64,000 nt of DNA, from assembly GCA_002347045.1 (NCBI GenBank), contig DDWV01000001.1:487201-551200 (forward strand). Reading direction: 5' to 3'. Both the position numbers and the translations under genes were made by a program. The notes beneath the pieces were generated by a model. It saw only the letters and a list, made by a program, of their open reading frames with translations. It searched no databases and had not been told where the DNA came from. Source of the stretch: Candidatus Collierbacteria bacterium UBA2277 (lineage in GTDB: Bacteria > Patescibacteriota > Microgenomatia > UBA1400 > MFAQ01). Below, in pieces: positions 1 through 34,382 of this stretch. How positions within the stretch are numbered: position 1 is the stretch's first letter; the number at the start of each line of letters is the position of its first letter.

Positions 1-901
1 TGGTGTGAGGAGTGATGGAACCTGGTTTGGCCAAAACTTGACCTCTTTGAACATCATCTTTTTCGATACCACGTAGAAGTAAACCTACATTGTCGCCTGA
101 CTGACCCTGCTCTAGCTGTTGGTGGAACATTTCTACTCCAGTAACAACTGATTTTGTGGTGTCTTTGATACCGACGATTTCAACTTCATCACCAATCTTG
201 ATGATTCCAGTGTCAATACGGCCAGTAACGACTGTACCACGACCTTTGATTGAGAAAACATCTTCAACAGGCATAAGGAATGGTTTGTCTAGATCACGAA
301 CTGGATCTGGAATCCATTCATCAACAGTGTCCATGAGTTTCATGATTCCTGCTTGAGCATCTTTATCGCCTTCAAGGGCTTTAAGGGCTGAGACACGAAC
401 GATTGGGGTGTCTTCTTCGAACTTGTATTTAACCAAAAGCTCTTTAATCTCCATCTCAACTAACTCAAGAAGCTCAGGATCTGAAACGGCATCGCATTTG
501 TTTAAAGCAACGACTAGACGAGGAACGTTAACCTGTTGGGCTAAAAGTAAGTGTTCTTTTGTCTGAGGCATAGGACCGTCGGTTGCGGCTACAACTAGAA
601 TTCCTCCATCCATCTGGGCTGCACCAGTGATCATGTTTTTGATGTAATCTCGGTGACCTGGACAGTCGATGTGGGCGTAGTGACGCTTGGATGTTTCGTA
701 AGGGACGTGAGAAATGTTGATTGTAACTCCACGCTCTCTCTCCTCAGGAGATTTATCAATCATGTCAAATGCGAGAGCATCTGCGAGACCTTGAGCAGCT
801 AAAGTTGTGGTAATAGCCGCGGTAAGGGTTGTCTTACCATGGTCAACGTGACCGATAGTTCCGATATTAACGTGGGTTTTTGTTCTTTGGTATGTAGCCA
901 T
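1..901 (-). CDS. tuf: Elongation factor Tu (the C-terminus runs off the window start)
   Basis: Reverse complement of 841-901 translates [31 protein letters not shown], the canonical EF-Tu N-terminus with a GHVDHGKT P-loop. The frame stays open to position 1. Confidence 0.93.
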
Positions 902-973
902 TTTTATTAATTTTTTTAATTATTTATAATATTTGCTTTTTCAAGCCTATTTATTCTAGCAGATTTTACCTTA

Positions 974-3094
974 TTACGCTGGATTTTTCAACAATTTAGC
1001 CGCAAGGCTGTTTGGCAACTCTTGATAATGACTTGGTTCCATGTAATAACTAGCACGGCCTGCGGTAAGTGACCGGATAGCCGTAGAGTAAGCGCTGAGC
1101 TCAGAAAGAGGTACCGTAGCGGTAATAACACGAGCATTCCCTCTTTGAGCAGTGCCTCCTATTTGAGCTCTTCTTGCTGAAAGATCTCCGATAATGTCGC
1201 CCATGTTTGCTTCAGGGGTAGTGACCTCAACTTTCATAATTGGCTCAAGGACAACAGGATTTGCATTTTTGACAGCGTCTTGCACCGCCATGGAGCCGGC
1301 GATCTTGAAAGACATTTCTGAGGAATCAACTTCGTGGAAAGAACCATCTACGACTGCGACGTCAAGATCAACCATGTTAAATCCGGCGATAATTCCATTT
1401 TCAAGGGCTTCACGAACACCTTTTTCAATAGGGTTAATGAATTCACGGGGAATTGTTCCACCAACAATCTTGTTTGTAAAAGTAACTCCTTCTCCACGGG
1501 GTTTTGGAGTAACAATAAGTACACAGTGACCATACTGTCCTCGTCCACCTGACTGACGAATAAATTTACCCTCACCCTGAGCTTCTTTGGTGATAGTTTC
1601 TCGATAAGCAACTTGAGGAGCACCAGTGGTGGCGTCTACTTTGAATTCACGTCTGAGGCGGTCAACCAAGATTTCTAGATGAAGTTCTCCCATTCCGGCG
1701 ATAACTGTCTGTCCAGTTTCTTGATTTGTCTTGATTTTGAAGGTAGGATCTTCTTCTGCAAGTCGACCAAGGGCGATATCTAATTTCTCTTGATCAGCTT
1801 TTGTCTTTGGTTCGATAGCAAGAGAGATGACTGGATCCGGAAAATCGATGGACTCAAGAACAATTGGCTTTGATTCATCACACAGTGTGTCTCCTGTCTT
1901 TGTGGCTTTTAAACCAACGATGCCGACGATTTCTCCTGCGCCAGCCTCACTAACTTCTTCACGGGTGTTTGCATGCATAAGCATTAAGCGGCCAAGACGT
2001 TCTCTTTCGCCTTTACTGGCGTTGTATACATAAGAACCCGAGGTTACTTTGCCTGAGTAAATACGAACGTAGGTGAGTTTTCCAACGTGAGGATCGGCTT
2101 GAATTTTGAAAGCGAGAGCTACAAATGGAGCTGCGGGGTCTGGTTTACGGGTTTCTTCTTCTTTTGTGTTGGGGTTGATGCCAATAGTGTCTGTGATATC
2201 TAGAGGAGAAGGCAAAAAGTCGACAACTGCGTCAAGAAGTGGTTGAACACCTTTGTTTCTAAGTGAAGAACCAGGAAAAACAGGGACGATTTCGTTGTCA
2301 ATCGTGGCTTTGCGAAGAGCAGTTTTTAGCTCAGAAACTGAAGGTTCTTCTCCGTTTAGATATTTTTCCATTAGTGCTTCATCTGTCTCGACAATGGATT
2401 CAATAATTTTAGATCTTTCGACCTCACAGGCATCTTTCATGTCTTCAGAAAAACCATCGGTGACTTCGTACTTGGCGCCAGTTTCGTCACCTTGCCAGAT
2501 AATAGTTTTTCTTTCAAGAAGAAGTGCAATACCTTTGAAGGTATTTTCTACACCAACTGGAAGGGCCATGATACAAGTTTTGGCTCCGAGCTTTTCGTGA
2601 ACATCTTTAATAGTGGCCATAAAATCTGCACCGAGAACGTCCATCTTGTTGACTAAGGCGATTCGAGGAACTTTGTATTTGTCTGCTTGACGCCATACAG
2701 TTTCTGTTTGGGACTGGACCCCAGAACCTGCATCGAGAACAATAATGCCACCATCGAGAACACGAAGTGAACGCTCAACTTCTGCGGTAAAGTCTACGTG
2801 GCCAGGAGTGTCTATAATGTTAAAACGACATTCTTCCTTGATGTTTGCGTCTTCTAGAACAGGAGTCCAGAAGGCGGTTGTTGCAGCTGAGACGATGGTA
2901 ATACCACGCTCTCTCTCTTGATCCATCCAGTCCATTTGAGTATCTCCCTCATCGATATCACCTATCTTGTATGTTTTTCCTGTATAAAAAAGAATTCTTT
3001 CGGTAGTGGTTGTTTTCCCTGCGTCAATGTGAGCGATAACACCGATGTTTCTTACTCGGTCTAGAGGGATTTGTTTTGAGACGGCTGTGGCCAT
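974..3094 (-). CDS. fusA: Elongation factor G
   Basis: 706 aa starting [40 protein letters not shown], with the DTPGHVDF and EF-G domain IV/V motifs. It lies directly downstream of tuf in str-operon order. Confidence 0.95.
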
Positions 3095-3135
3095 ACTTTG
3101 TATTTTTCTTAATTGATTATTTTGACGAAATAAAC

Positions 3136-3152
3136 CTGCCCGAAAAGGGCAG
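3136..3152 (-). promoter_or_regulatory. Short GC hairpin in the helicase-fusA intergenic region (attenuator or processing site)
   Basis: CTGCCC-GAAAA-GGGCAG, a 6-bp perfect stem. It sits in the 98-bp gap between the helicase stop (3193) and the fusA start (3094). The flanking U-tract is weak. Confidence 0.4.
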
Positions 3153-3192
3153 AATTTCTACAAGGCTAATTCTACCACAAGATAGCTAATTT

Positions 3193-5259
3193 TTATCTAT
3201 TCTTTCTAGACTTATGACGAGAACGGCTGTGTGAAGTGCCAGATTCTTGATTTTGTTTTTTTTGATCCTTTTTACCTTGGAAAAATAGATAAGGAGCAAT
3301 TTCCTTAACCCAGATTGGTTTGATTTCCATACAGTTACAAGCAAAAGCTCTGTCACTCGGACTAATAAAGATTTCTCCAGCGACAATAAAGGACCCGGGT
3401 CCGGGGACGTTGTTATAGTAAACAGAACTTGGGTGAATTGAGATTTCTCCTTTTGTACCATCAACTTTTCGGAATTGGTTTTTACCAGTGTTTTGGAGTA
3501 GGTTACCAATTAATCCAGCAGCAACTGCTTTTCCGATAGCGTCCTTGTTGATTACTGGTTTTGTTTTTGGATCGATAAATATTCCATGATTAGAAAGAAC
3601 ATCTATAAGGTCAAGGCGAACATTTTTTGCTTCTTCTAATGCTTTTTCATTGAGAAAGTTTTGTTTTGCCCATTCAGGATCAAATCCGCTTTTGTCATAT
3701 GCCTTCCAAACATTTAGAAAAACGACAAAGTCGGACTCATTTTCTCTTTTAAACTGTGCATGTGCCCTATCGGCGAGCATTTGCTCTTGTCTTTCTGAAG
3801 GTCTTAGGAAAATGTTTTTGCCATCTAAAAAAGAGGCAATTATAGTTATCTCGTTGACGCAGTTAATGTCTGGTCTTGCTGCTTCAATCACCATTCTGCC
3901 TAAGCGGGGCTCAAGACTAAGGTCAACAAGCCACTCTCCAATTTCTGTGATTTCATCATTGCCATCAAGAGCTCCAAGAAGCTTAAGAGTTTTTAGAGCC
4001 TGATGAATAGCTCCTTTCCCGGGGTGATCAATAAAATCAAAACCCTCTATGTCATGAATTCCGACTTTTTTCATACTTAAAACTACCTGAGTTAGTTCTG
4101 AGCGCTGAATCTCTGGCGTTTGAAAATATGGTCTTTCTCCCCTGCTGGACTCTGTAAATAGACGATAACAAATTCCTGGTGCTGTTCTACCAGCCCTCCC
4201 TTTTCGTTGTTCAAGACCACTTTGGGCATGTTTTGTAAGTACCAATTGTTCAATACCTGAGCGTGTGTCAAATTGAATTTGCTTGATGAGCCCTGGATCG
4301 ATGACGTGAATAACACCATCGATAGTAACTGAGGTTTCTGCAATGTTGGTTGAAACAATAATTTTCCGGTATTCTGATGGTGAAAAAATTCTATCTTGAT
4401 CGTCGGGAGATAGCTCGGCGTGAAGAGGAATAATCTCGACTCTTTCGCTGACAACCCTTTCCTTAATTTTATCGATAGTGCTGGTAATTTCACCTTTTCC
4501 AGGCATAAAAATAAGGATATCTCCTTCAATATTGTTGTCAATAATTGCTGAGACTTTGTCCACGGCACCTCTAATAAAGTCGTAGTTTTCGGGAGTGCTT
4601 CTTTCGTATACCACCTCAACAGGAAACATCTTTCCTTCAATTTCAACAGAGTTGTTTCTGTCTCCTAAGCCTATGTACTCAGCGAATCGATTTCTTTCTA
4701 TGGTAGCTGAGGTTACTATAATTCTTATAACATCAACGCCAGCACTACGACGACGCTCGTTGACCTCTTTTAGGAGGCCAAGACAGAGGTCAATGTTCAA
4801 ACTTCTTTCGTGAGCTTCATCTACCATTACGATCGAGTACTCGGAAAGAAAAGGGTCAAACTGGATTTTACGAAGTAAAACACCATCGGTCATAAAGGTG
4901 ATGTCTGTTTCTGGAGAGGTAACATCTTCAAAGCGAATGTGATATCCAACCTTTTCTCCAACCTCTGTACCCATCATCTCCGAGACTCTGGCTGTGGCAC
5001 TTCTGGTAGCTACACGACGAGGTTGGGTAACGGCAATTCCACCCTTGAGACCAAGTTCATTTCTTAGTTCCAAAAGAAGGGGTGGAAGACAAGTAGTCTT
5101 ACCGGACCCAGTTTCGCCGACTAAAACAAAATTTGTGTGATCTCTGAGTTCTTGTCTTAGTGACTCTCTTAGTTTGACAACAGGAAGAGCATCCAAACCT
5201 TCAAAGGCAGGTTCAATCGAACAGCTAAAGCGAATGTTTTCTACGTTTCTTGATGCCAT
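3193..5259 (-). CDS. DEAH-box ATP-dependent helicase of the HrpA/HrpB family, with a Ser/Arg/Lys-rich C-terminal tail
   Basis: 688 aa with the motifs GETGSGKTT (Walker A), VDEAHERSLNID (DEAH), TSATIE (SAT), QRKGRAGR, and an HA2/OB-like C-terminal region. The C-terminal tail reads KKDQKKQNQESGTSHSRSRHKSRKNR. Confidence 0.8.
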   Translation of the reverse strand: MASRNVENIRFSCSIEPAFEGLDALPVVKLRESLRQELRDHTNFVLVGETGSGKTTCLPPLLLELRNELGLKGGIAVTQPRRVATRSATARVSEMMGTEVGEKVGYHIRFEDVTSPETDITFMTDGVLLRKIQFDPFLSEYSIVMVDEAHERSLNIDLCLGLLKEVNERRRSAGVDVIRIIVTSATIERNRFAEYIGLGDRNNSVEIEGKMFPVEVVYERSTPENYDFIRGAVDKVSAIIDNNIEGDILIFMPGKGEITSTIDKIKERVVSERVEIIPLHAELSPDDQDRIFSPSEYRKIIVSTNIAETSVTIDGVIHVIDPGLIKQIQFDTRSGIEQLVLTKHAQSGLEQRKGRAGRTAPGICYRLFTESSRGERPYFQTPEIQRSELTQVVLSMKKVGIHDIEGFDFIDHPGKGAIHQALKTLKLLGALDGNDEITEIGEWLVDLSLEPRLGRMVIEAARPDINCVNEITIIASFLDGKNIFLRPSERQEQMLADRAHAQFKRENESDFVVFLNVWKAYDKSGFDPEWAKQNFLNEKALEEAKNVRLDLIDVLSNHGIFIDPKTKPVINKDAIGKAVAAGLIGNLLQNTGKNQFRKVDGTKGEISIHPSSVYYNNVPGPGSFIVAGEIFISPSDRAFACNCMEIKPIWVKEIAPYLFFQGKKDQKKQNQESGTSHSRSRHKSRKNR

Positions 5260-5411
5260 ACAATAAATATTTTTCTTTTTGAGAACTTATCGCCAAATTA
5301 AAGCTGCTATAGCTTGAGTAATCGGCTCTGATAGAATACCACAAATAAGCTTAAATATATATTATCGGTTTGAAACGTTTTAGAAGTAAGGTAAATTTAA
5401 CGAAGTTTTGT

Positions 5412-5888
5412 TTACCAGCGGAAGTGAGCGAAAGCTTTGTTGGCTTCGGCCATTTTGTGAGTATCAAGCTTCTTCTTGACTGCTGCACCGGCATTTTCGT
5501 GAGCTTCTAAGATCTCTGCAGCAAACTTCTCGGCGAGAGTTCTGGTTGGGTTGTTTGATCGGGCTTTTGCAGCGTTCAAAACCCAGCGAATGGCTAGAGA
5601 ATCACGACGCTCAGGTCTAATGGGGGATGGCACTTGGTAGGATGCACCTCCGACGCGTCGAGATCGAACTTCGATGGTTGGTTTGACGTTTTCAATGGCT
5701 TCAGTAAGATACTCAAGACCGTCCTTACCAGACTCTTCAGCAATGATTTCGATTGCACGATAAACTTGTTTGGCGGCAACTGTTTTTTTACCTTCGAGCA
5801 TACAACCGTTAATTATCTTGGCAACCAGCTGACTGTTGTAGATTGGGTCTAGCTGAATTCTTTTTGGAGGAGTTTTTTTTGATCTCAT
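5412..5888 (-). CDS. rpsG: 30S ribosomal protein S7
   Basis: 158 aa. MRSKKTPPKRIQLDPIYNSQLVAKIIN...AIRWVLNAA is typical S7. The gene is adjacent to rpsL. Confidence 0.93.
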   Translation of the reverse strand: MRSKKTPPKRIQLDPIYNSQLVAKIINGCMLEGKKTVAAKQVYRAIEIIAEESGKDGLEYLTEAIENVKPTIEVRSRRVGGASYQVPSPIRPERRDSLAIRWVLNAAKARSNNPTRTLAEKFAAEILEAHENAGAAVKKKLDTHKMAEANKAFAHFRW

Positions 5889-5898
5889 GTTTTATATA

Positions 5899-6318
5899 TT
5901 ACTTTTTGTCAGATGGGCGTTTGGTGCCGTATTTACTTCGACTTGAACGACGCTTTTCAATACCACCAGTGTCGAGTTTGCCTCTAACAATATGATATTT
6001 AACACCTGGCAAGTCACGAACGCGGCCGCCTCTAATAAGAACGATACTATGTTCAGCAAGATTGTGACCTTCACCCATGATGTAGGCAGTAACTTCTTGT
6101 TTGTTTGAAAGTCTAACACGGGCAACCTTACGCAAAGCAGAGTTAGGTTTCTTTGGGGTCATGGTTTTGACCTGAAGACAAACTCCTGCTTTTTGAGGAG
6201 ATATAGTATCGACCATTCTGCGCTTAATTGAGTTAAAACTTTTGCGAAGAGCAGTTGTTTTATTTTTTTTAGCGGCTGAGACACGGCCATGTTTGATGAG
6301 TTGATTAGTTGTAGGCAT
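5899..6318 (-). CDS. rpsL: 30S ribosomal protein S12 (with about a 15-aa insertion near the N-terminus)
   Basis: [12 protein letters not shown]...[18 protein letters not shown]...[21 protein letters not shown] is S12. An extra [18 protein letters not shown] segment is present relative to typical S12. Confidence 0.93.
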
Positions 6319-6337
6319 AATTCAGTTGTGTATTTTA

Positions 6338-9300
6338 TCAGATATTCTCAATCTTTGCTCTGAGCTTACTTGTAGGTACAAGTCGACCAATAATAACGTT
6401 TTCTTTCATGCCTATTAAGTGGTCTATTCTTCCTTGAACTGCAGAGTCGGTGAGGACTGAAGTGGTGTTCTGGAATGAGGCGGCTGATAGCCATGAGTCG
6501 GTGTGTAAAGCAGCTCTAATTGCACCAAGAATTAGGTTTGTGGCTGTTGCGGGCTCGCCACCTTCGGCAATAATAGCCTCATTTGATGTCTCATAGGCTC
6601 CTCGACTAATGATGTCTCCTGCGACGAGGGCTGTGTCACCAACAGAGTCTATGCGGACGTAATCACACATTTTACGAATAATTACTTCAAAGTGTTTATC
6701 GTGAATACTGATACCTTGAGACTCGTAGATTGACTGAGTTTCAGCAATAAGATGATCTTGAGTGGCTCGTAAACCTTTGATTCTAAGAAGCTCCTTGATG
6801 TCAACTCCACCGGAAGATAGCTGAGTACCGACAGAGACCAAGTCTCCATCTGAGACTTTGAGAGTCATAGCGAGAGGAATTAAGTATTCTTTCTTTTCCT
6901 CTTTACTCTTGCTTCCAGGGGTAATGATGACCAGATTGCCATTCTCTGTTTCAGTAACTTTTACTTTTCCGGAGACTTCAGCAATTGGGGCAACAAGTTT
7001 TGGCGTTCTGACTTCGAGTAACTCAGTAACTCTTGGAAGACCTTGGGTAACGTCAACTCCAGCAGCTCCTCCTGAGTGTTTGGTACGCATAGTTAATTGA
7101 GTGCCTGGTTCACCAATGGACTGCGCGGCGATGATACCTACGGGGTCACCAACTATAGCTGGAGCGTTTGTAGCAGTATTGTGACCATAACACTTGGCAC
7201 AAAGACCGAAACGGAGTTTACAAGTAATAGGCGACCTCACCTCGACCTCCTTGACACCAGCTGCTTCTATCTCGGCAGCAAGCTCTTCGGTAATCATTTC
7301 ACCAGCAGGAACAATAACCTTTTTGGTTTTTGGAGAAATAATCTTTTTGACGGTGTATCGGTGAACTATTCGCTTGGCGAATATCTTGGATCTTGTTTCA
7401 GCCGAGATAGTGATGAACTCATCGGTACCACAGTCTTCTGCACGGATAATTGCATCATGACTAACATCAACTAAACGTCGAGTGAGGTAACCAGCGTCGG
7501 CTGTACGAAGAGCGGTGTCTGTAAGACCTTTTCGAGAACCTCTGATTGAAGTAACATACTCAAAGATTGACAGACCTTCACGGAAGTTACCTTTTATTGG
7601 AAGTTCAATTAGATTACCAAGAGGATCAGCGATAAGTCCACGCATAGCGGAAAGCTGATTAATGGAGTTTTTGGTAACACGACCTGAGGCAGAGTCGATG
7701 ACTAAACGAATTGGGTTTGTGGGTGAGAAGGTGGCCCATGTCTTTTCGGCTAGGTCTTCGGCGGTATCCATCCACATACGGATAGTAAGCTTGCGACGTT
7801 CATCGTCGGTGATTAAACCTAGTTTATAGTTTTCTTCAATTTCTTCAGCTTTTTTGTTTCCAGCAGCGATGACTGAGGCTTTCTCTGGGTAAACTTCATT
7901 ATCTGTGGTTGCAAAAGAGAAACTACTAACTGTTGCATATTCGAAACCTGTGTCTTTTACAGCATCAATGAGCTTAACTACACGTTTTGTGTCTAAAGTC
8001 TTAATGGCTTGAGTAAATAAAGCGGAGATATCTTTACCAGTAAAGCTCTTGTTTTGGAAATCCCATTCTTTTGGCAAGAGCTGATTGAAGATAATACGAC
8101 CAACTGTAGTATCGGTCATAACCATACTGTCGGCATTGAGACGAACAGTAATTGGCTGTCTAACTTCAATTGCTTTGTTTTGGTATGCAGTGATGGCTTC
8201 TTGTTGACTAGACATAGGGCTTTGGTAAGCAGTAAGAGTCTCGTCTATGGAAGTAAGATAGAAAACACCAACAGCCATTTCTTTTCTTGATGGAATATTG
8301 ACACTTTGACCAGAGCTTGGTTTAAGGAGGTTAAATTGAGGAAGCATGTGTTTTTTAGCCTCACGAATAGCTTTTTTAGTTAAAGGAACGTGAACAGCCA
8401 TTTGATCTCCATCAAAGTCTGCATTGAAACCTTCACAGACAACTGGGTGAAGACGAATAGCAGAGCCATCGACAAGTACCGGCAAGAAGGCTAGAATTGA
8501 AAGCTTGTGTAGTGTAGGAGCACGGTTGAGCAGGATTGGATGATTTTTGGTGATTCTTTCTAGAATATCAAAAACCTCTGGCTGACGTTTTTCAATTAAT
8601 GTTTTAGCAGCTTTGACGTTTGGAGCTAGGTCCTGTTTTATGATCTCATGAAGAACGAATGGCTTGAACATTTCTAGTGCCATGTCTTTTGGAAGACCAC
8701 ACTGATTTAGTTTTAGTTCTGGACCAACAATGATAACGGAACGGCCCGAGTAATCGACACGTTTACCGAGAAGATTCTGACGGAAACGACCCTGCTTTCC
8801 ACGTAACATGTCTGAAAGAGACTTGAGAGTTTTACCTGTTCTTGATCTTCTAGTTGAACGAGCTTGAGAAGAATCTATTAACGAGTCAACTGCTTCTTGA
8901 AGCATGCGTTTTTCGTTTCTTAGAATGATTTCAGGAGCTCCAAGATCAATAAGGTGTTTAAGACGGTTGTTGCGGTTTATCACGCGACGGTAGAGATCGT
9001 TTAGGTCGGAAGCGGCGAAACGGCCACCTGAAAGCTGTACCATAGGTCGAAGATCTGGAGGAATAACAGGAAGAACACTAAGAACCATCCACTCTGGTTT
9101 TACCTTGGAATCAAGTAAACCGCGAACAACTTGAAGTCGTTTTGTGGCCCTAAGACGTTTTGCTTCAGAGTTACTAAAAGAGTCCTCTTTTAACTTTATG
9201 GCGAGCTCAGGAAGATTTACTTTCTTCAAAGCTTCTAAAATTGCTTCAGAACCCATACCAGCAACCATCCAATCAACTAGGTCATACTCAGCAAGTTTTG

Positions 9301-10045
9301 CATACTCGGAGTCTGAGAGAAGAGAGTTTACCTGTATTTTCTCTGTAATTGTGGCAAGCTTGCTATAGATTTCTTCTGTGAAGGCTAACTCAACGACCAT
9401 CTGCTCACGAAGTGAGGCGATTTTTCGTTTTGTCTCCATTTTTAGGTCATCTGACTTTATTTCAAGCTCGTCTTTTGCCTTGATTTTTTTCTTAACAGTT
9501 GAGAGTTCTTTCTTACCTTCTTTTTTGACCTCTTCAATTTGTTCATCGAAGCTCTTTCTGACGTCGTTTAGCTTAGTGTCTTTTTGCTTAAGAACGTCTT
9601 TGAGAGCGGCTTCTCGCTTGTCCTCATCAACAGACATGATCAAATATTTACTGAAGTAAATAACTGAAGTAAGAGCTTTTGGGGTAATATCGAGCAAAAG
9701 AGATAGCTTACTAGGAGCGCCTTTGAAGAACCAGACATGAGCTACAGGAGCAGCTAGATCCAGGTGACCCATGCGCTCGCGTCTAACACGACTCAGGGTA
9801 ACCTCAACACCACACTTATCACAGACTATTCCCTTAAATCTAACGCGTTTGTACTTTCCACAGTAACATTCCCAGTCTTTTACAGGACCGAAAATTCTTT
9901 CACAAAAAAGTCCATCTTTTTCAGGTTTCTGAGTACGATAGTTGATAGTTTCTGGTTTTGTAACCAAACCATGTGACCATTTTTTTATGTCATCTGGACT
10001 GGCTAGCCTTATTTGTAAACCGGAGAAATCGACAATGTTATTCAT
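6338..10045 (-). CDS. rpoC: DNA-directed RNA polymerase subunit beta'
   Basis: 1235 aa with an N-terminal zinc-binding CYCGKY...CDKCGVEV motif, the NADFDGD catalytic motif and the trigger loop. It sits immediately downstream of rpoB. Confidence 0.95.
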
Positions 10046-10054
10046 AAGTGCAGT

Positions 10055-13000
10055 TTATTTACTGATATTTTCATCAGAGTTAGTAATACCCGCTTCAGCG
10101 TCTTCTTCGGAAACTTCTTTTTCGCTGGTTTCTTCTTCGTCTTCAAAAGTGGCGGCTTGGAGTTCTTCACTCATAGCTGTTGCTTCAGTAATGACCGCAG
10201 CGACTTCGGGTTTAATTGGTTCTTCTTCTTCAACTCCCTCAACTGATCCTGTAGGAATGATTGCGAGACATAATGAGTTAAGTTCTTTGACTAAGACTTT
10301 GAATGACTCAGGAACAGAAGACATAGGAATTGGCTCGCCTTTAACGATCGACTCAAAGGCTTTTGATCTGCCAACCACATCATCTGACTTAATTGTGAGC
10401 ATTTCTTGAAGTGAGTAGGCTGCTTTGTGTGCTTCTAGAGCCCAAACTTCCATTTCCCCTAAACGCTGACCTCCCATTTGAGCTTTTCCTCCCAAAGGCT
10501 GCTGTGTAACTAAACTGTAAGGTCCAATACTTCGTGCATGAGTTTTGTCTTCAACCATGTGATTGAGCTTGATGATGTAGGTAACACCAACAGCAGTCTC
10601 ATCTTCGAAAGGTTCACCAGTGCGACCATCAAAGAGCTGTACCTTACCAGACTCAGGAAGACCAGCTTCTTTTAGAGCTTCAGAAATTCTTTTGTCTGAG
10701 ATATTTTCGAAAACTGGTGCGGCATATCGCTTACCAAGTCTTGATCCAGCAAAACCAAGCTCCGCCTCTAGTAACTGACCAAGATTCATACGAGCAAGAA
10801 CAGAGAGAGGAGAAATAATGATGTCTACAGGAGTACCGTCTGCCATATGAGGCATGTCGGCGGTAGAGACAATTTTACTGATGACTCCTTTGTTTCCATG
10901 TCGTCCCGCAACTTTGTCACCTGAAGTGATTTTTCTAAGTTGTGCAACTTTAATTTTTATTTGTTTGATGACTCCGGCATCTAGTTCGTCACCGTCATCA
11001 CGACTTAAAACTCTAATTGAGATAACAATTCCTTGCTCACCATGAGGCATGCGAAGAGAAGTATCGCGTACTTCACGAGCTTTTTCTCCAAAGATTGAAC
11101 GTAGAAGTCTCTCTTCAGCGGTAAGTTCTGTTTCACCCTTGGGTGCAATTTTACCAATTAAAATGTCGTTTGGACCAACTACTGAACCGACAGCTATGAT
11201 TCCTTCAGAGTCAAGATTCTTAAGATCGGCTTCGGCGACGTTTGGGATATCTCTTGTTAGCTCTTCTGCACCAAGTTTGGTGTCCATAACATCACATGTA
11301 TGCTCATGAATATGAACGGAAGAAAGCAGGTCTTCTTTGACACAACGATCAGAAACAACAATGGCATCTTCGTAGCCTAGACCTTCAAAAGCGGCATAAG
11401 CAATAAAGAGATTTTGTCCTAGGGCGAGTTCACCATTTTCAGCAGCAGGTCCATTGATGATGACATCACCTTTTTTAATTTTATCTCCGACATCGACGAG
11501 TGGATGTTGGTTGTAAGAAGTATCTTGGGAAGAGTTGTGATATTTCCTGATGCTGTAAGTAACGATATCTCGAGAGACCTCGACGAAACCATAGTCGAAA
11601 GGTGATATTTCTGAAGCGGCTGACTTGGCGTCATTTTCTGAGAGCTTGATTGAGATATGGTCGGCATCCACAGAGATTACCTCTCCCTCAAACTGAGATT
11701 TTACTGACCAACCCATACTTTGAGCGACAACGCTTTCCATGCCGGTACCAACAATAGGTGCACTTGGTTTAACAAGGGGTAACGCTTGAGTGAGGTGGTG
11801 AGTTCCCATGAGGGCACGAGTACCTTCATCTTGCTGAATGAAAGGAATTAGGGAAGCTGAAGTTCCTACAACTTGACGAGGAACAACATCGATATACTGA
11901 ATCATGTCGACGTCAACTTCGATGTACTTTCCTTGAAAACGAGCAGGGACCCATTCTTGGGTGATGATGTCTCCATCACGCTCAATTCCAGCGTGAGTAA
12001 TGTAGGCATCTTCTTCGTCGTCTGCACCAAGATAAACAATTTCTTTGCCAATGGCTATAATGCTTTTTCCGCCCTTGGTAACTTTTTTAACTTCGAGATA
12101 AGGAGACTCAAGGAAACCATAGTCATTTACGCGAGTATAAAGAGAAAGATAGGTTACTAGACCAACGTTTGGGCCTTCAGGAGATCTAACAGGGCAAATT
12201 CTTGAGTATTGAGAAGAGTGGATATCACGCATTGAGAAACTTGCGCGCTCTCGTGTAATACCGCCAGGTCCCATAACTGAAACACGTCTAAGGTTGTCAA
12301 TCTCTGATAGAGGATTAACTTGATCAAGGATTGAGGATAGACGATTGCGACGGAAAAATTCGGTTATAGCAGAGATTATTGGTCTTGGATTTACAAAAGC
12401 AGCTGGTGTAGGTAGTTCGTCTGGCTTAGCAAGAGACATTTTCTCTTTGATTGACCTTTCTAGCCTGAGAAGTCCTGATTTGAAGGATGTTTGATTTACA
12501 AGTTCACCAACACATCTCAGACGTCGGTTAGCCAGGTGATCGATGTCATCGATTTTTCCATGACCATTTTGAAGGCCGATTAGGTATTTAATGGCTCCAA
12601 CAAAGTCTTCTGTGCTAAGAGTAATGTGCTGTTTGTCCACTTTTGACGATAGACCAAGTTTACGATTCATCTTGTAACGACCGACTAGACCAAGATTGTA
12701 TCTTCTAACGTCGAAGAACATTTGGTGAAGGAGGGCCTTGGCGTTTTCAAGTACGGCTGGTTCCCCTGGTCGAACTTTTTGGTAAAACTCAAGAAGAGCT
12801 TCTTCGGTGTTTGTGGAAGTGTCTTTTAGAAGAGTGGTTGCAATATATTGATGGTCTTTATCAACATCGACATCGGAGAAAAGAGCTTGAATTTCTTCAT
12901 TGGAACTGTAGCCAATAGCTCTAAGAATGGTAGTTGCGGAAACTTTTCGATGTCTATCAATTCGAATAGAGATATGATCATTTCGACTAACTAAAACTTC

Positions 13001-13495
13001 CAACCACGAACCTCGCATGGGACGAATCTCTGCTTGATGCAAAGCTCTGCCAGAGTGAGGATCAAATTCTCTGGTGAAGTACGCTCCCGAAGATCTAATT
13101 AACTGATTAACGACGACACGCTCTACTCCGTTGATGATGAATGTTCCAGTGCTGGTCATCATGGGAATATCACCGAGGAATATTTCTTGCTGTTGAGATG
13201 CTTTTGAGGCTAAGTTGGTGAGTTTTACAGTAGCCCAAAGAGGAGCTTCAAAAGTAACGCCTTTTTCTAAGGCTTGTTTTGGGGTAATTTTGGGAAGACC
13301 AACACGATTGGATAAAAATTCAAATTCAAATACTTTTCCAGTGAAATCTTTTATTGGATTAAGTTCGGTAAGGGACTCACGGATGCCGTCCTCGAGAAAC
13401 TGTTTGTATGAATCGATCTGTATCTGAGTCAAATTCAATTCTGGTAATACCGGGTTGACATTCCCCCAGTTTTCACGATTTATTTGTTTATTCAT
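10055..13495 (-). CDS. rpoB: DNA-directed RNA polymerase subunit beta
   Basis: 1146 aa containing the conserved beta-subunit regions RSPEGPNVGLV...LSLYTRVN... and GEMEVWALEA, with an acidic C-terminal tail. Confidence 0.95.
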   Translation of the reverse strand: MNKQINRENWGNVNPVLPELNLTQIQIDSYKQFLEDGIRESLTELNPIKDFTGKVFEFEFLSNRVGLPKITPKQALEKGVTFEAPLWATVKLTNLASKASQQQEIFLGDIPMMTSTGTFIINGVERVVVNQLIRSSGAYFTREFDPHSGRALHQAEIRPMRGSWLEVLVSRNDHISIRIDRHRKVSATTILRAIGYSSNEEIQALFSDVDVDKDHQYIATTLLKDTSTNTEEALLEFYQKVRPGEPAVLENAKALLHQMFFDVRRYNLGLVGRYKMNRKLGLSSKVDKQHITLSTEDFVGAIKYLIGLQNGHGKIDDIDHLANRRLRCVGELVNQTSFKSGLLRLERSIKEKMSLAKPDELPTPAAFVNPRPIISAITEFFRRNRLSSILDQVNPLSEIDNLRRVSVMGPGGITRERASFSMRDIHSSQYSRICPVRSPEGPNVGLVTYLSLYTRVNDYGFLESPYLEVKKVTKGGKSIIAIGKEIVYLGADDEEDAYITHAGIERDGDIITQEWVPARFQGKYIEVDVDMIQYIDVVPRQVVGTSASLIPFIQQDEGTRALMGTHHLTQALPLVKPSAPIVGTGMESVVAQSMGWSVKSQFEGEVISVDADHISIKLSENDAKSAASEISPFDYGFVEVSRDIVTYSIRKYHNSSQDTSYNQHPLVDVGDKIKKGDVIINGPAAENGELALGQNLFIAYAAFEGLGYEDAIVVSDRCVKEDLLSSVHIHEHTCDVMDTKLGAEELTRDIPNVAEADLKNLDSEGIIAVGSVVGPNDILIGKIAPKGETELTAEERLLRSIFGEKAREVRDTSLRMPHGEQGIVISIRVLSRDDGDELDAGVIKQIKIKVAQLRKITSGDKVAGRHGNKGVISKIVSTADMPHMADGTPVDIIISPLSVLARMNLGQLLEAELGFAGSRLGKRYAAPVFENISDKRISEALKEAGLPESGKVQLFDGRTGEPFEDETAVGVTYIIKLNHMVEDKTHARSIGPYSLVTQQPLGGKAQMGGQRLGEMEVWALEAHKAAYSLQEMLTIKSDDVVGRSKAFESIVKGEPIPMSSVPESFKVLVKELNSLCLAIIPTGSVEGVEEEEPIKPEVAAVITEATAMSEELQAATFEDEEETSEKEVSEEDAEAGITNSDENISK

Positions 13496-16088: not shown

Positions 16089-18272
16089 TTAGTTTGCTAG
16101 CATCTCAAATTTTATTTTTGAGTATGGCAGAAGTTTTGTGAATAAAGGAATAGGAGGATAAATTTTGACGCTCAAATGATCAAACCCCTCAATTGTAGAG
16201 AAGATGGGGCGAATACTTGAAGATGGTTTCCCCTTGATGAAGCTTTTGTATTTTACTTCGTCAATCGTCGGAAAGAGACTGGTTTCGACATTTACTTTTG
16301 CTTGATAGTAGTTACCGGCGATAACTGGTTCTTCGAGGTTAATTGAGGTGTTGCCTTGAAAAATTTCAGACCCAGAAGGAATTTGAGAGGCTAGTTGTTC
16401 TGAGATCAGTTGGAATAAACTATCCTCTGAGTAAACAAGTGTTTCCAGAGAACCCTCGAGATCAAGATTGAGTATAGCTGCCTCTTCACCAACATCTTTG
16501 TCAAACACCTTTTTAGTGAATTTTAGATCTGAAAGTATTAATGATTTGAATCCAGGGTTCTGAGCATTAGTAGATGATTGGGTATCTGACTTGATTTTTT
16601 CACTAGCCAGCTGAAAAAGCTTGTCCTGATCTGCTTTGGAGACTGCCCTTACTGCGCGCGATGTCCCTCCTGAAAAGTCTGAGTCTGATACAGCATAGGC
16701 AACACTCATAGAGTAGTTGTCAACTGAAAAGGTGGAGTTTTTTGGAAGATTGTAGTCTGCTCCAATTTTAACTGCTTTTACCTTGACGCCGGTGGCCTTA
16801 CCATATGTTTCTGTGCCAGCGATGAGGTCAGCACTTTTGGAAGCAATAGTAACTTGGTCTGTGATGGTGTATGAGTATTTACCATTTTCCGATTCGATTA
16901 CGGCTCCTGCTTTAACGGAGATTGAGGAGGTTGATTTGTTGGCAATAGTAATCATACCGGTTGCGTGTTCTCCGACAGTAGCTTCCCCAGTTGTTTCTAT
17001 TTGTTCTCTAGCAACACCAGATATTGTTTTTTTGGTAGCTATCAGCGTGGGAGTGCCTGAGACAGGAATTTCTGAGATAGCAATATCAATTTGTGAGGTA
17101 ATTTTTTGTGGGTTGAAGTAGATGGTGACAATGGCCTCTCCTAAAAACAAATAACCGACAAACCCAAGAACAAAAATTAGCGGAATAATTAATAAATATA
17201 GGTACGGGTACTTAAGGTTAGAAAATTTTGGGAAAGATAGTTTTGGAATTTTTGGAAGTTTTGGAACAGAAAACGACATTTTTGGAGCTGGAGGAGAAAC
17301 TTTTTCTACGGGGATAGAGTCCTCTTCTTGAACAATGGCAAATTCAGGTGAGTCAGAAATCATCGGAGGAAGAGGCTCTGAGATACTTTTTTCGACAGAT
17401 AAGGGAGCTTCTGACTCTTCATAAGAAAAACCAAGCTCATTTATTGATGTAGGAGGTGATTGAGGAACATAAATGTTTGACTCTTCTTGGGGAGAGGAGA
17501 GGGTTTCTTCATTCCTGGTGCTAGTATTTTCACCTGATAGATACTGTACTGCTTCTGAACCGCCTGTAAGAGCAACAGCTTTGATACTAAACTCGATGGG
17601 TAAAACTTCAACCTTGGGCATGTTCTGAAAAGGAAGCCTTTCTTGCCAAGGATGTGAAGTAATTCGTTGCTCTTCTTCTTCTAAGGCTCCACCATTGGTA
17701 AGAATGAATCTTGCCGGAAGTTTTTCTTTTCCAATAACTGTGAGCCCCTCTTCAACGTCTTGGGCAATATCTCCTGATCTAGCTGCTTCTTCTGACGCAG
17801 AAACATCCCCTTTTTCAATTACCGAGACGACGACCTTGGTGTTGTAAATTTCCAATAGAATGGCTGTTGGAGGAATTCCCTCAAGCTTTTTCATGTAGTG
17901 AGCAATTGCAGAGTTTATGGGAACCATGCCGATCGGAGATAGTCCTAACTCTTTGATTAGGTTGCCTAATAGATGAATCTTTGTTGGGTGAATTTTTCCG
18001 TCTTCAATCCAAGAGTCCGGGAGACCAAAAATTACTTTTCTTGGTTCGGAGTCTATCATTTTGACGGCCTGTTCCAGTGAAGCGTCTACTCCGTTGATAA
18101 GTGATTCTTCATCGGCCCAAGATTCGTATGAACCATAGCTAATGACTGAAGGTTCTGTTCCGACTACCTCCCAGAGAGCAGTTTTTATCAAAGACTCATG
18201 AATTTCGATGGCAAGATAATACTCAGGCTCCGTAACTTTTGATTTATTTCCAAATAAATTTACTATGTTCAT
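16089..18272 (-). CDS. Large bitopic membrane protein: a PilM/FtsA-like actin-fold N-domain, one TM helix and a ~350-aa extracytoplasmic domain
   Basis: The 727 aa N-terminus YYLAIEIHESLIKTALWEV resembles the GIDIGS..IK.V.L start of PilM/FtsA ATPases. One hydrophobic helix (YLYLLIIPLIFVLGFVGYLFLG) sits near residue 355. The C-terminal half is Ser/Thr-rich with no recognised domain. Confidence 0.5.
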   Translation of the reverse strand: MNIVNLFGNKSKVTEPEYYLAIEIHESLIKTALWEVVGTEPSVISYGSYESWADEESLINGVDASLEQAVKMIDSEPRKVIFGLPDSWIEDGKIHPTKIHLLGNLIKELGLSPIGMVPINSAIAHYMKKLEGIPPTAILLEIYNTKVVVSVIEKGDVSASEEAARSGDIAQDVEEGLTVIGKEKLPARFILTNGGALEEEEQRITSHPWQERLPFQNMPKVEVLPIEFSIKAVALTGGSEAVQYLSGENTSTRNEETLSSPQEESNIYVPQSPPTSINELGFSYEESEAPLSVEKSISEPLPPMISDSPEFAIVQEEDSIPVEKVSPPAPKMSFSVPKLPKIPKLSFPKFSNLKYPYLYLLIIPLIFVLGFVGYLFLGEAIVTIYFNPQKITSQIDIAISEIPVSGTPTLIATKKTISGVAREQIETTGEATVGEHATGMITIANKSTSSISVKAGAVIESENGKYSYTITDQVTIASKSADLIAGTETYGKATGVKVKAVKIGADYNLPKNSTFSVDNYSMSVAYAVSDSDFSGGTSRAVRAVSKADQDKLFQLASEKIKSDTQSSTNAQNPGFKSLILSDLKFTKKVFDKDVGEEAAILNLDLEGSLETLVYSEDSLFQLISEQLASQIPSGSEIFQGNTSINLEEPVIAGNYYQAKVNVETSLFPTIDEVKYKSFIKGKPSSSIRPIFSTIEGFDHLSVKIYPPIPLFTKLLPYSKIKFEMLAN

Positions 18273-20138: not shown

Positions 20139-20195
20139 TTGAATATGAATTATAACAAGCTTTCTTATGTACTGGATACTAAAAAAAGTGACTTG

Positions 20196-33481: not shown

Positions 33482-34333
33482 CTAGAGGGTAGAGTCAAGT
33501 TTTTTGACCAGATCTTTTTGCTTTCCGGAGAGTCTGGTCGGAAACTTGATGACATAGCGTATATAGAGATCTCCGTGACGGTTGCTTTGGAGATGTTTTA
33601 TACCTTTACCCGTAAGGCGGATAACAGTCTCTGGCTGAGTCCCTTGACGAACTTTTATCTTTAGATCACCATCGAGAGTAGGGATCGCAGTTTCTCCTCC
33701 GAGTATAGCAAGAGTAAAAGGAATTTCGTGATTAACGATAACATCTGAACCTTCTCGCTTGAATATTTTACTTGGCTTAACGTCAAAGCTAATGTCAAAA
33801 TCTGAGTAGCGAATTCGAGTTCCTTCGTCGGCTCCGGCTGGAATTTTTACTGTGTACTGCTTTCCTTGATGGACAATGGTTTTTTCTGCCCCATGGACGG
33901 CGTCATTAAAGTCTATTTTTAGGGAGTAATGGGGCTTTTGAGGGCGTTGCGATCGAGATGCTCCTCCAAAAAAGCCACTAAAAATATCAAAGGGGTCTGA
34001 GAAACCTCCTGCCCCGCCAAAAAGATCTTCAAAGTTTATGTTTCCACCTGTGGTGTAGTAACTACCAAAAGGATTGCCCGATCCGGCCCCTGGATTAAAC
34101 CCGGCGCCCCCGCCAAAAGCTGCATGACCAAATTGATCAAATTTAGCTTTCTTTTCGGGGTTACTTAAGACTTCGTAAGCTTCATTGATTTCTTTGAATT
34201 TTTCGTGTGCGTCTGAAGACTTGTTTTTATCTGGATGCCACTTGAGGGCCAATTTCCTGTAAGCAGACTTAATTTCTGCCGCAGTTGCAGTTTTTGAAAC
34301 ACCTAGAACATCGTAGAAATCGCGTGTAGCCAT
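33482..34333 (-). CDS. dnaJ: J-domain co-chaperone (class B DnaJ/CbpA-like, no zinc-finger domain)
   Basis: A J-domain with HPD ([13 protein letters not shown]), a Gly/Phe-rich linker and C-terminal substrate-binding domains. No CxxCxGxG repeats are present. Confidence 0.8.
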
Positions 34334-34355
34334 ATTAAGTCAACAAACTATTTTA

Positions 34356-34382
34356 CCAGGAGCTGAGGATTTCAGCCCCTGG
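34356..34382 (-). promoter_or_regulatory. Imperfect hairpin in the dnaK-dnaJ intergenic region
   Basis: CCAGG-a-GCTGA, loop GGATTT, TCAGC-c-CCTGG. Located between the dnaK stop (34391) and the dnaJ start (34333). Confidence 0.35.

What the first reader, a model, noticed from the sequence alone, without database searches (positions are those of the whole stretch)
3095..5411. A DEAH/HrpA-like helicase with an RS-like basic tail sits inside the str operon between rpsG and fusA
In almost all bacteria rpsL-rpsG-fusA-tuf are contiguous. Here a 688-aa DEAH helicase, with complete Walker A, DEAH, SAT and QRxGRAGR motifs plus HA2/OB domains, is inserted co-directionally between rpsG and fusA. It has its own 152-bp upstream gap and a GC hairpin (3136-3152) before fusA. 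Its C-terminus ends in a Ser/Arg/Lys-rich tail (GTSHSRSRHKSRKNR) reminiscent of eukaryotic RS or basic RNA-binding tails, which is unusual for bacterial HrpA/HrpB. The placement suggests co-expression with translation factors, perhaps as an rRNA or ribosome-assembly helicase substituting for a missing DEAD-box protein.
Basis: partly seen in the sequence, partly recalled or inferred. Interest (0 to 1): 0.5.

Follow-up and report, generated by a model that had tools for sequence, protein, structure and literature searches.

The report
Compact DEAH helicase between rpsG and fusA
A real, intact RNA-helicase gene sits between ribosomal protein S7 and elongation factor G in this tiny-genome (Microgenomates/CPR) bacterium and many of its relatives, but it looks like a separately promoted neighbour rather than a tightly coupled operon member, and its basic tail is a family trait rather than a eukaryote-style RS domain.

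Summary
On the minus strand, rpoB-rpoC-rpsL-rpsG (…5412-5888) is followed by a 688-aa DEAH/RHA helicase (3193-5259) and then fusA (974-3094). The protein has all the helicase motifs, WH/ratchet/OB domains and a disordered basic tail.

It is a compact, core-only relative of HrpA/Prp22/Prp43. It falls below the HrpA and HrpB equivalog cut-offs. It lacks the C-terminal region that E. coli HrpA needs to rescue collided ribosomes.

The basic Lys/Arg/His-rich tail occurs across the whole ~680-700 aa Microgenomates family, including members located outside the str region. RS dipeptides in the tail are not conserved.

The rpsG-helicase linkage is conserved in 11 arrangements from three well-supported helicase clades (S7 identity 74-99%). 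It is lost in at least two other clades. The slot also holds variable cargo.

In relatives, rpsG ends with a strong terminator. The helicase has its own conserved extended -10-like element. The hairpin at 3136-3152 belongs to a conserved promoter-plus-leader module that travels with fusA.

In this genome the rpsG terminator is missing, so read-through into the helicase is plausible. A ribosome-related role is an inference, not a demonstrated function. Interest is modest.

The parts
3193..5259 (-). CDS of the 688-aa compact DEAH/RHA RNA helicase (RecA1, RecA2, winged helix, ratchet/helical bundle, OB, basic tail)
   Evidence: ORF. Pfam DEAD, Helicase_C, HA2_C and OB_NTP_bind. NCBIfam HrpA model positions 57-690 of 1284 matched. 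AF2 model pLDDT 85, pTM 0.82. Foldseek TM 0.80-0.86 to DHX8, Prp22, Prp43 and the E. coli HrpA core.
3196..3279 (-). Codons for residues 661-688: the disordered basic tail (K/R/H/S/N-rich)
   Evidence: pLDDT is about 30-37 for residues 661-688.
5260..5411 (-). 152-bp rpsG-helicase spacer with no terminator-like hairpin. Relatives carry a terminator plus small ORFs here.
   Evidence: No minus-strand terminator-like site in 5260-5411. Comparison with L082, L085-L088, L092, L093 and L096. The putative 5'UTR has no significant structure (z -0.16). No Rfam match.
5333..5343 (-). TGTGGTATTCT: extended -10-like element upstream of the helicase (TG-N-TATTCT), about 74 nt before the ATG
   Evidence: Exact position. 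The equivalent position in relatives carries TGTGTTAATCT, TGTGATATCCT or TATGTTATCCT. It is a consensus match only, not an experimentally mapped promoter.
3169..3179 (-). TGTGGTAGAAT: extended -10 promoter-like element of fusA, starting 14 nt after the helicase stop codon
   Evidence: Conserved as TGTGGTAAAAT, TATGGTAAAAT, TGTGCTAAAAT, TGTGATAAAAT or TGTGGTACAAT in 8 of 8 loci. Of 14 TGNTANAAT matches in the window, 11-12 lie upstream of same-strand genes.
3127..3158 (-). Conserved fusA-leader stem-loop. The core hairpin is 3136-3152; extended pairing joins GAAAUU to AUUUC.
   Evidence: MFE -14.2 kcal/mol, z -4.2. The hairpin is present at the same position in all 8 aligned loci (by eye; MFE in 6), with changes that keep pairing: C-G, U.G and U-A at one pair, and C-G to G-C at the innermost pair in L092. 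It travels with fusA in L086 and L082.
5412..5888 (-). rpsG (ribosomal protein S7), upstream neighbour
974..3094 (-). fusA (EF-G), downstream neighbour

Best explanation
What it is (shown). The gene encodes an intact, compact DEAH/RHA RNA helicase of the HrpA/Prp22/Prp43 clade. It consists of the helicase core only (RecA1-RecA2-WH-ratchet-OB) plus a roughly 28-aa disordered basic tail. It belongs to a ~680-700 aa family typical of Microgenomates-type Patescibacteria.

Where it sits (shown). The position just downstream of rpsG is an old, mostly retained feature of this lineage. The slot between rpsG and fusA is nevertheless loose. It has long spacers, its own promoter-like elements, terminators in relatives, and variable extra genes.

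Expression (inferred from sequence). The helicase is transcribed from its own weak extended -10 promoter. In this genome and its closest relative L084, where the rpsG terminator has been lost, it is also transcribed by read-through from rpoBC-rpsLG. No terminator lies between the helicase stop codon and the fusA promoter. Helicase transcripts therefore run into the fusA leader hairpin, where they either stop or continue.

Mechanism (inferred from family knowledge). The protein should act as an ATP-driven 3'-to-5' single-strand RNA translocase that pulls RNA through the tunnel between the RecA domains and the WH/ratchet/OB module. The basic tail would act as a non-specific RNA tether, as basic C-tails do in DEAD-box chaperones such as CYT-19, Mss116 and RhlE.

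Likely clients (inferred from long-term linkage to translation genes). The most likely substrates are ribosomal: rRNA or ribosome assembly intermediates, or ribosome-bound mRNA.
For: - Identity: motifs and domains. The hook-turn residues R109 and F110 and the motif residues are invariant in 31 homologs. The structure model and fold matches agree. The family profile scores 640 bits against DHX8, 609 against DHX15 and 554 against E. coli HrpA.
- Family and tail.
- Linkage: L001, L084 and L082; L085-L088; the P0042 locus; L092, L093-95 and L096. Two of the S7 look-ups were chosen without reference to the helicase.
- Phylogeny: linked genes fall in three supported clades with bootstrap 82, 94 and 100%, inside a group supported at 100%.
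- Transcription signals.
- Native origin: GC and GC3 match the neighbouring genes. There is no defence-system match.
Against: - No expression data exist. All promoters and terminators are consensus matches.
- The helicase evolves much faster than its neighbours: 52-72% identity against 82-91% for rpsG, rpsL, rpoC and fusA (69-87% in L092).
- It is separated from its neighbours by 152 and 98 nt, whereas the rpoC-rpsL-rpsG junctions are 10-19 nt.
- Homologs with the same length and tail type sit in unrelated contexts, beside ABC transporters or unknown genes. The str position is therefore not required for function.
- The one characterised bacterial relative acting on ribosomes, E. coli HrpA, needs a C-terminal region that is absent here.
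Confidence: 0.55

Rival explanations
1. Positional passenger. The helicase is a general RNA-metabolism enzyme, for example a partner of the RNase J and PNPase encoded in the same window, working in mRNA or rRNA decay and processing. Its place next to rpsG is inherited gene order without functional meaning.
For: - It has its own promoter-like element, and relatives have flanking terminators.
- The slot carries variable cargo: NUDIX, DUF559, two small-ORF families and a reverse-strand gene.
- At least two clades relocated the gene while keeping the same length and tail.
- It diverges faster than its neighbours.
- RNase J and PNPase are present in the window.
Against: The linkage persists across three well-supported clades and down to 74% S7 and 52% helicase identity. 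That is long retention for a neutral arrangement in fast-evolving, rearranging small genomes.
Confidence: 0.3
2. A true HrpA functional equivalent. Like E. coli HrpA, it rescues stalled or collided ribosomes by pulling on mRNA and splitting the ribosome.
For: NCBIfam HrpA is the best bacterial model hit (509.6 bits). The core superposes on HrpA, including the disome-bound structure 9gft. [quoted passage not shown] The gene is linked to translation genes.
Against: The score is below the HrpA equivalog cut-off (509.6 against 722.75), and only HrpA model positions 57-690 of 1284 are covered. HrpA residues 1-783, which lack the DUF3418/Hook C-terminal region, cannot bind collided ribosomes well or split them, in vitro or in vivo. 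The window protein ends right after the OB domain.
Confidence: 0.12
3. The helicase is an obligatory str-operon member, co-expressed with translation factors, that replaces missing DEAD-box proteins, with a eukaryote-like RS tail.
For: There is no terminator between rpsG and the helicase in this genome or in L084. No DEAD-box gene lies in the 64-kb window. The position is conserved.
Against: RS dipeptides are not conserved. Relatives insulate the gene with terminators and give it its own promoter-like element. The hairpin belongs to the fusA leader module. DEAD-box absence is untested for the remaining roughly 90% of the genome.
Confidence: 0.1
4. A eukaryote-derived or eukaryote-sister DEAH helicase, acquired by horizontal transfer or representing the bacterial stock of the spliceosomal DEAH proteins.
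For: Single-sequence and profile searches rank DHX8/Prp22 about 50-85 bits above E. coli HrpA. A Parcubacteria homolog behaves the same way.
Against: The difference is small, and a Borreliella HrpA core scores Prp22 and HrpA equally. Ranking may therefore reflect divergence of E. coli HrpA. GC and GC3 are native. The family is broad and deep within Patescibacteria. No proper tree including eukaryotic sequences could be built here.
Confidence: 0.03

Closest known systems
E. coli HrpA (DEAH/RHA helicase; ribosome-collision rescue factor; PDB 6zww, 9gft)
   Same: Same core: RecA1/RecA2 with DEAH, SAT and QRxGRxGR motifs, winged helix, ratchet and OB. It aligns over HrpA residues ~70-710 at about 35% identity with TM ~0.8. 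It should share 3'-to-5' RNA translocation.
   Different: [quoted passage not shown] It is below the equivalog cut-off. It has a short basic tail instead, and it sits next to rpsG in many genomes.
Eukaryotic core-type DEAH helicases Prp43/DHX15 and Prp22/DHX8
   Same: These are the best sequence and fold matches (424-640 bits; TM 0.82-0.86; 33-37% identity). The helicase module is similar in size to the DHX15/Prp43 core, with no large C-terminal extension. Prp43 also acts in ribosome biogenesis (established knowledge).
   Different: There is no N-terminal RS or S1 region as in DHX8/Prp22. No G-patch cofactor is known or was tested. The host is bacterial and the gene composition is native. The tail is Lys/Arg/His-rich rather than an RS repeat.
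HrpB (bacterial DExH-box helicase)
   Same: Shares the RecA core and HA2 region (368 bits over HrpB model positions 1-447).
   Different: The score is below the cut-off (546), and the match stops before HrpB's OB and C-terminal domains. PDB HrpB scores only ~227 bits against ~372 for HrpA.
Basic C-terminal tails of DEAD-box RNA chaperones (CYT-19, Mss116, RhlE)
   Same: A short, disordered, strongly basic C-terminal extension appended to a helicase core. In those proteins it tethers the core non-specifically to structured RNA (established knowledge; RhlE C-terminal extensions are discussed in PMC8266600, which was listed but not read).
   Different: It belongs to a different helicase family (processive DEAH/RHA rather than DEAD-box). 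Tail function here is inferred only from composition and predicted disorder.
Canonical str operon (rpsL-rpsG-fusA-tuf)
   Same: Same flanking genes in the same order and orientation.
   Different: It is interrupted between rpsG and fusA by the helicase, and in relatives by further genes. Promoter-like and terminator elements split it into separate units.

Membership tests
DEAH/RHA (SF2) RNA helicases | Motifs I (GxxGxGKT), II (DEAH), III (SAT) and VI (QRxGRxGR) | tested here: met
   GETGSGKT at 48, DEAH at 147, SAT, and QRKGRAGR at 351. The motif residues are invariant in 31 homologs.
DEAH/RHA (SF2) RNA helicases | C-terminal auxiliary module: winged helix, ratchet (helical bundle) and OB fold | tested here: met
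   Pfam HA2_C and OB_NTP_bind are above their cut-offs, and HA2_N is just below. The AF2 model (pLDDT 85) superposes on DHX8, Prp22, Prp43 and HrpA over ~650 columns with TM 0.80-0.86.
DEAH/RHA (SF2) RNA helicases | RNA-dependent ATPase and 3'-to-5' unwinding activity | not testable with these tools
   This needs biochemistry. Only the hook-turn RF (R109, F110) and the motif conservation are seen.
HrpA (TIGR01967 / PRK11131 equivalog) | Whole-protein score at or above the curated cut-off | tested here: not met
   509.6 bits against a cut-off of 722.75, and 441.4 against 1400.
HrpA (TIGR01967 / PRK11131 equivalog) | C-terminal region (DUF3418: beta-meander, HB2, alpha+beta domains, Hook) that recognises collided ribosomes | tested here: not met
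   The match covers only HrpA model positions 57-690 of 1284. The protein ends 28 residues after the OB domain. The requirement for the C-terminal region is shown in PMC11419001.
HrpB (TIGR01970 equivalog) | Score at or above the cut-off, with the HrpB C-terminal domain | tested here: not met
   368.2 bits against 546.15, and only model positions 1-447 of 825 are matched.
Eukaryotic RS (Arg/Ser) domain | Extended run of repeated RS/SR dipeptides, conserved among orthologs | tested here: not met
   The window tail has 4 overlapping RS/SR dipeptides in 30 aa. Across 76 family members the mean is 1.2 and 27 have none. The conserved property is K+R (29%) and His (13%).
G-patch-activated DEAH helicases (Prp43/DHX15, Prp2) | Dependence on a G-patch cofactor | not tested
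   No search for G-patch proteins was possible in the rest of the genome. Neighbouring small ORFs in relatives are not universal, being absent in the window, L084 and L092.
str operon member (single transcription unit rpsL-rpsG-X-fusA-tuf) | Co-transcription without internal terminators or promoters; tight gene spacing | tested here: inconclusive
   In the window there is no terminator after rpsG, but the spacers are 152 and 98 nt against 10-19 nt elsewhere, and promoter-like elements precede both the helicase and fusA. In 8 of 10 related loci a canonical terminator follows rpsG. RNA-seq is needed.
Anti-phage defence helicases | Match to a PADLOC defence model | tested here: not met
   No PADLOC family matched at E <= 0.001.

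The most novel reading that the evidence does not exclude
The Microgenomates core-only DEAH helicase is a dedicated, lineage-specific ribosome factor. In this reading it is a bacterial counterpart of Prp43/DHX15-type enzymes in ribosome biogenesis, or a minimal HrpA-like rescue enzyme that uses its basic tail instead of the Hook domain. It would have been embedded ancestrally in the rpoBC-str-S10 supercluster and partly co-transcribed with fusA/tuf. This would also make Patescibacteria the bacterial group whose DEAH cores most resemble the spliceosomal ones.
Probability: 0.2. Interest if true: 0.6.

Novelty: new variant of a known kind. Interest (0 to 1): 0.35.

Why it matters
CPR/Patescibacteria have reduced genomes and unusual ribosomes, and almost nothing is known about their RNA helicases. 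A compact DEAH helicase that has stayed next to S7 and EF-G across a large part of the Microgenomates is a concrete, testable candidate for a ribosome-associated helicase in these organisms. It would also show what an HrpA-type core can do without HrpA's collision-sensing C-terminal region.

If the linkage is only inherited gene order, the finding reduces to an annotation note. In that case the str operon of this lineage is simply split into separately promoted units, with a permeable slot between rpsG and fusA.

Tried and rejected
- Rfam searches of the whole window (gathering thresholds) and of 900-6500 (E <= 1) found no known leader, riboswitch or sRNA in either spacer. No tRNAs were found.
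- The putative helicase 5'UTR has no significant structure (z -0.16).
None of these 80 loci was str-linked. The metagenome scan gave only 3 loci. Synteny therefore had to be mapped with exact-protein look-ups, and all 12 were used.
- The overall count of TGNTANAAT is not above chance (14 against 11.3 expected). Only the placement of the matches is informative.
- The ranking of DHX8 above E. coli HrpA was checked with controls. It is shared by a Parcubacteria homolog and absent for Borreliella HrpA, so it is not treated as evidence of eukaryotic affinity.
- A defence-system origin is rejected (no PADLOC match). Recent horizontal transfer is rejected (GC and GC3 match the neighbours).
- Literature searches for DEAH helicases in Patescibacteria/CPR found nothing relevant.
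- MAFFT put the window hairpin one column out of register. Pair changes were therefore read by eye and from individual folds, not with the count of structure pairs.
Full report
OBSERVATION. The minus strand of the window carries rpoB (10055-13495), rpoC (6338-10045), rpsL (5899-6318), rpsG (5412-5888), a 688-aa ORF (3193-5259) and fusA (974-3094). A longer public contig with the identical protein continues with tuf and rpsJ. The spacers are 152 bp (5260-5411) and 98 bp (3095-3192), compared with 10-19 bp at the rpoC/rpsL/rpsG junctions. The hairpin CTGCCC-TTTTC-GGGCAG lies at 3152-3136 and is followed by GTTTATTTCG. It is the top terminator-like site in the region.

THE PROTEIN. Pfam finds DEAD, Helicase_C, HA2_C and OB_NTP_bind above their cut-offs, and HA2_N just below. 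Motifs I, II (DEAH), III (SAT) and VI (QRKGRAGR) are present. Together with the hook-turn residues R109/F110, the motif residues are invariant in an alignment of 31 homologs.

An AlphaFold2 model built on that alignment has mean pLDDT 85 and pTM 0.82. Only residues 1-12 and 661-688 fall below pLDDT 50. Foldseek superposes about 650 columns on DHX8, Prp22, Prp2, DHX15, Prp43 and the E. coli HrpA core, with TM 0.80-0.86 and 33-37% identity.

By sequence, the best solved relatives are DHX8/Prp22 (424 bits alone, 640 with the family profile), then DHX15/Prp43, then E. coli HrpA (372 and 554), and far behind HrpB (227). NCBIfam's HrpA equivalog matches only model positions 57-690 of 1284, at 509.6 bits against a cut-off of 722.75. 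HrpB gives 368 bits against 546. The protein is therefore a DEAH/RHA helicase of the HrpA/Prp clade reduced to the core. It is not an HrpA or HrpB ortholog by the curated criteria.

The modest preference for eukaryotic cores is shared by a Parcubacteria homolog. A Borreliella HrpA core scores Prp22 and HrpA equally. I do not read this ranking as evidence of eukaryotic affinity.

FAMILY AND TAIL. The closest homologs (50-100% identity) are 665-710 aa proteins from MAGs labelled Microgenomates, Woesebacteria or Collierbacteria. Where databases name them at all, they call them HrpA-like or ATP-dependent RNA helicases. More distant Patescibacteria versions (44-49% identity) are 720-1200 aa long, with other C-terminal extensions.

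In the last 30 residues of 76 family members of 660-710 aa:
- K+R averages 8.6 (29%, against 12% in the rest of the protein).
- His averages 3.8 (13%, against 2%).
- Ser averages 2.9.
- Acidic residues average 1.7.
- RS/SR dipeptides average only 1.2, and 27 of the 76 proteins have none.

The tail is therefore a conserved compositional feature: basic, His-rich and predicted to be disordered. It is not an RS domain. It is also present in homologs that lie outside the str region, such as P0023 and P0068.

SYNTENY. The rpsG-helicase linkage was found in these loci:
- the window/L001;
- L084, with a 93% identical helicase, and L082, at 65%;
- L085 (72%), L086 (70%), L087 (68%) and L088 (65%, Woesebacteria);
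- the P0042 locus (62%);
- three S7-anchored look-ups: L092 (S7 74%, helicase 52%), L093-95 (S7 86%) and L096 (S7 88%).

Two of those S7 proteins (P0141 and P0131) were chosen without reference to the helicase. That is a proxy for further linked cases.

The linkage is absent in L002 and P0039 (Collierbacteria-type), L083, L089 (P0023), L090 (P0068) and L091 (P0080). It is also absent in all 77 more distant loci.

In a bootstrapped neighbour-joining tree, linked genes occur in three supported clades (82%, 94% and 100%). Non-linked genes occur in two supported clades (94% and 100%). All of them lie inside a group with 100% support. The order among these clades is unresolved. An ancestral linkage with at least two relocations is the simplest reading, but coexisting paralogs cannot be excluded.

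The slot is permeable. Between rpsG and the helicase, relatives carry a NUDIX gene, a DUF559 gene and small ORFs of two families. Between the helicase and fusA, some carry a reverse-strand gene (L086), a 186-aa ORF (L082), or 335- and 420-aa ORFs (L096). The helicase also diverges much faster than its neighbours: 52-72% identity against 82-91% for rpsG, rpsL, rpoC and fusA, or 69-87% in L092.

TRANSCRIPTION SIGNALS (sequence-based inference).
1. Terminator after rpsG. In 8 of 10 related loci a canonical intrinsic terminator (A-tract, GC stem, T-tract) follows rpsG within ~25-60 nt. It is missing only in the window and its closest relative L084.
2. Helicase promoter. Directly upstream of the helicase, all loci carry a conserved TG-N-TA..CT element. 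It reads TGTGTTAATCT in six loci, TGTGATATCCT in L092, TATGTTATCCT in L096, and TGTGGTATTCT at window 5343-5333 and in L084. In most relatives a second terminator immediately precedes it.
3. fusA module. fusA has a stronger extended -10, TGTGGTAGAAT at 3179-3169, which is conserved in 8 of 8 loci. It is followed by the hairpin and a conserved UUUCGUC. The hairpin keeps its position in all eight loci. Its pairing is maintained through C-G, U.G and U-A at one pair and through C-G to G-C at another. In the window it extends to a 12-bp structure with MFE -14.2 kcal/mol and z -4.2.
4. The module belongs to fusA. It stays next to fusA when other genes intervene (L086, L082). So it is a fusA promoter-plus-leader unit, not a private helicase terminator.
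5. Promoter type. TGNTANAAT is not over-represented in number (14 against 11.3 expected). However, 11-12 of the 14 matches lie just upstream of same-strand genes. This supports it as the working -10 type in this organism.

No known RNA family matches either spacer.

Taken together, the str region of this lineage is cut into separately promoted units. In this particular genome the loss of the rpsG terminator makes read-through into the helicase likely. Because no terminator lies between the helicase stop codon and the fusA promoter, helicase transcripts run into the fusA leader.

HOW IT MOST LIKELY WORKS.
- Shown: an intact DEAH/RHA core with all catalytic and RNA-tunnel elements, a disordered basic tail, native base composition, no defence-system signature, and long-term linkage to rpsG.
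- Inferred from family knowledge: ATP-driven 3'-to-5' translocation on single-stranded RNA, with the tail acting as a non-specific RNA tether. Basic C-tails play this role in DEAD-box chaperones.
- Inferred from context: clients related to the ribosome, such as rRNA or assembly intermediates, or ribosome-bound mRNA.

The recent demonstration that E. coli HrpA rescues collided ribosomes makes a ribosomal role attractive. The same work shows that HrpA residues 1-783, lacking the DUF3418/Hook region, neither bind collided ribosomes well nor split them (PMC11419001). The window protein lacks that entire region. An HrpA-type collision sensor is therefore unlikely unless the tail or an unknown partner substitutes for it.

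The main rival is that the location is inherited gene order and the enzyme is a general RNA-metabolism helicase. RNase J and PNPase are encoded in the same window.

NOVELTY AND SCORE. The protein is already in public databases under generic names. I found no paper on DEAH helicases of Patescibacteria or on this gene order. It is best described as a new variant of a known kind. The variant features are a core-only HrpA/Prp-like helicase with a basic tail, an ancestral but loose position between rpsG and fusA in Microgenomates, and a conserved fusA leader module next to it.

A specialist would find this mildly interesting rather than surprising. I score interest at 0.35. The most novel reading not excluded is a dedicated ribosome-associated DEAH helicase that works without HrpA's collision-sensing region. 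I give that about 0.2 probability.

Noticed in passing
window 3127-3179 (minus); L082 8763-8832, L085 3568-3637, L086 7638-7707, L087 7093-7162, L088 7068-7137, L092 5167-5236, L093 9025-9094: A conserved fusA-proximal module with no Rfam match. It consists of an extended -10 (TGTG-N-TAAAAT), about 12 nt, a stem-loop with pair-preserving changes, and UUUCGUC. It may be an undescribed fusA leader or attenuator in Microgenomates.
   Followed up: partly
L085 1163-1399, L087 4623-4883, L093 6583-6837; L086 4733-4924, L082 5595-5870, L088 ~4720-4870, L096 7215-7421: Two families of small ORFs occupy the rpsG-helicase slot in relatives. One is Cys-rich (MxCPxIxAA...C.E.KC..WN...CG). The other ends in DFHPxDxPAQFPSEPE or a shorter ...EPE. 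Each has its own promoter-like element, a Shine-Dalgarno sequence and a terminator. Neither has a Pfam hit, and neither is present in the window.
   Followed up: partly
L082 ~7060-7062: The 65%-identical helicase in L082 has a single in-frame stop (CYR*FTE where all others have CYRLFTE). This could be a sequencing error, a pseudogene or a strain variant.
   Followed up: no
window 20149-20157, 34350-34358, 30696-30704, 6332-6340 (minus): Several full TGNTANAAT matches lie only ~10-30 nt upstream of start codons, for example before alaS at 20138 and the gene starting at 34333. This hints at very short or leaderless 5'UTRs. fusA and the helicase also lack an obvious Shine-Dalgarno sequence, whereas the small slot ORFs in relatives have AGGAGG.
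   Followed up: no
window 5329-5337 (plus): TGATAGAAT on the plus strand is a full extended -10 match. It overlaps the reverse complement of the helicase -10 region and points antisense into rpsG. It is conserved in L084.
   Followed up: no
window 1-64000: The whole 64 kb contains no tRNA gene and no Rfam family at gathering threshold, although it holds the rpoBC-str cluster, where r-protein leaders are known in other phyla.
   Followed up: partly
window 18297-20138, 23610-25274, 27180-29348, 38995-40764 (minus): Other RNA and translation genes lie in the window: a short AlaRS (613 aa), RNase J, PNPase and LepA. A 727-aa ORF at 16089-18272 has no Pfam match.
   Followed up: no
L025 11542-13563: In one Treponema locus a fusA-like gene (44% identity to the window's EF-G) lies 3.6 kb downstream of the HrpA-like helicase. 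It is probably coincidental or an EF-G paralog.
   Followed up: no
family level: Patescibacterial DEAH cores score about 50-85 bits higher against spliceosomal DHX8/DHX16/Prp22 than against E. coli HrpA, while a Borreliella HrpA core scores them equally. This needs a proper phylogeny.
   Followed up: partly
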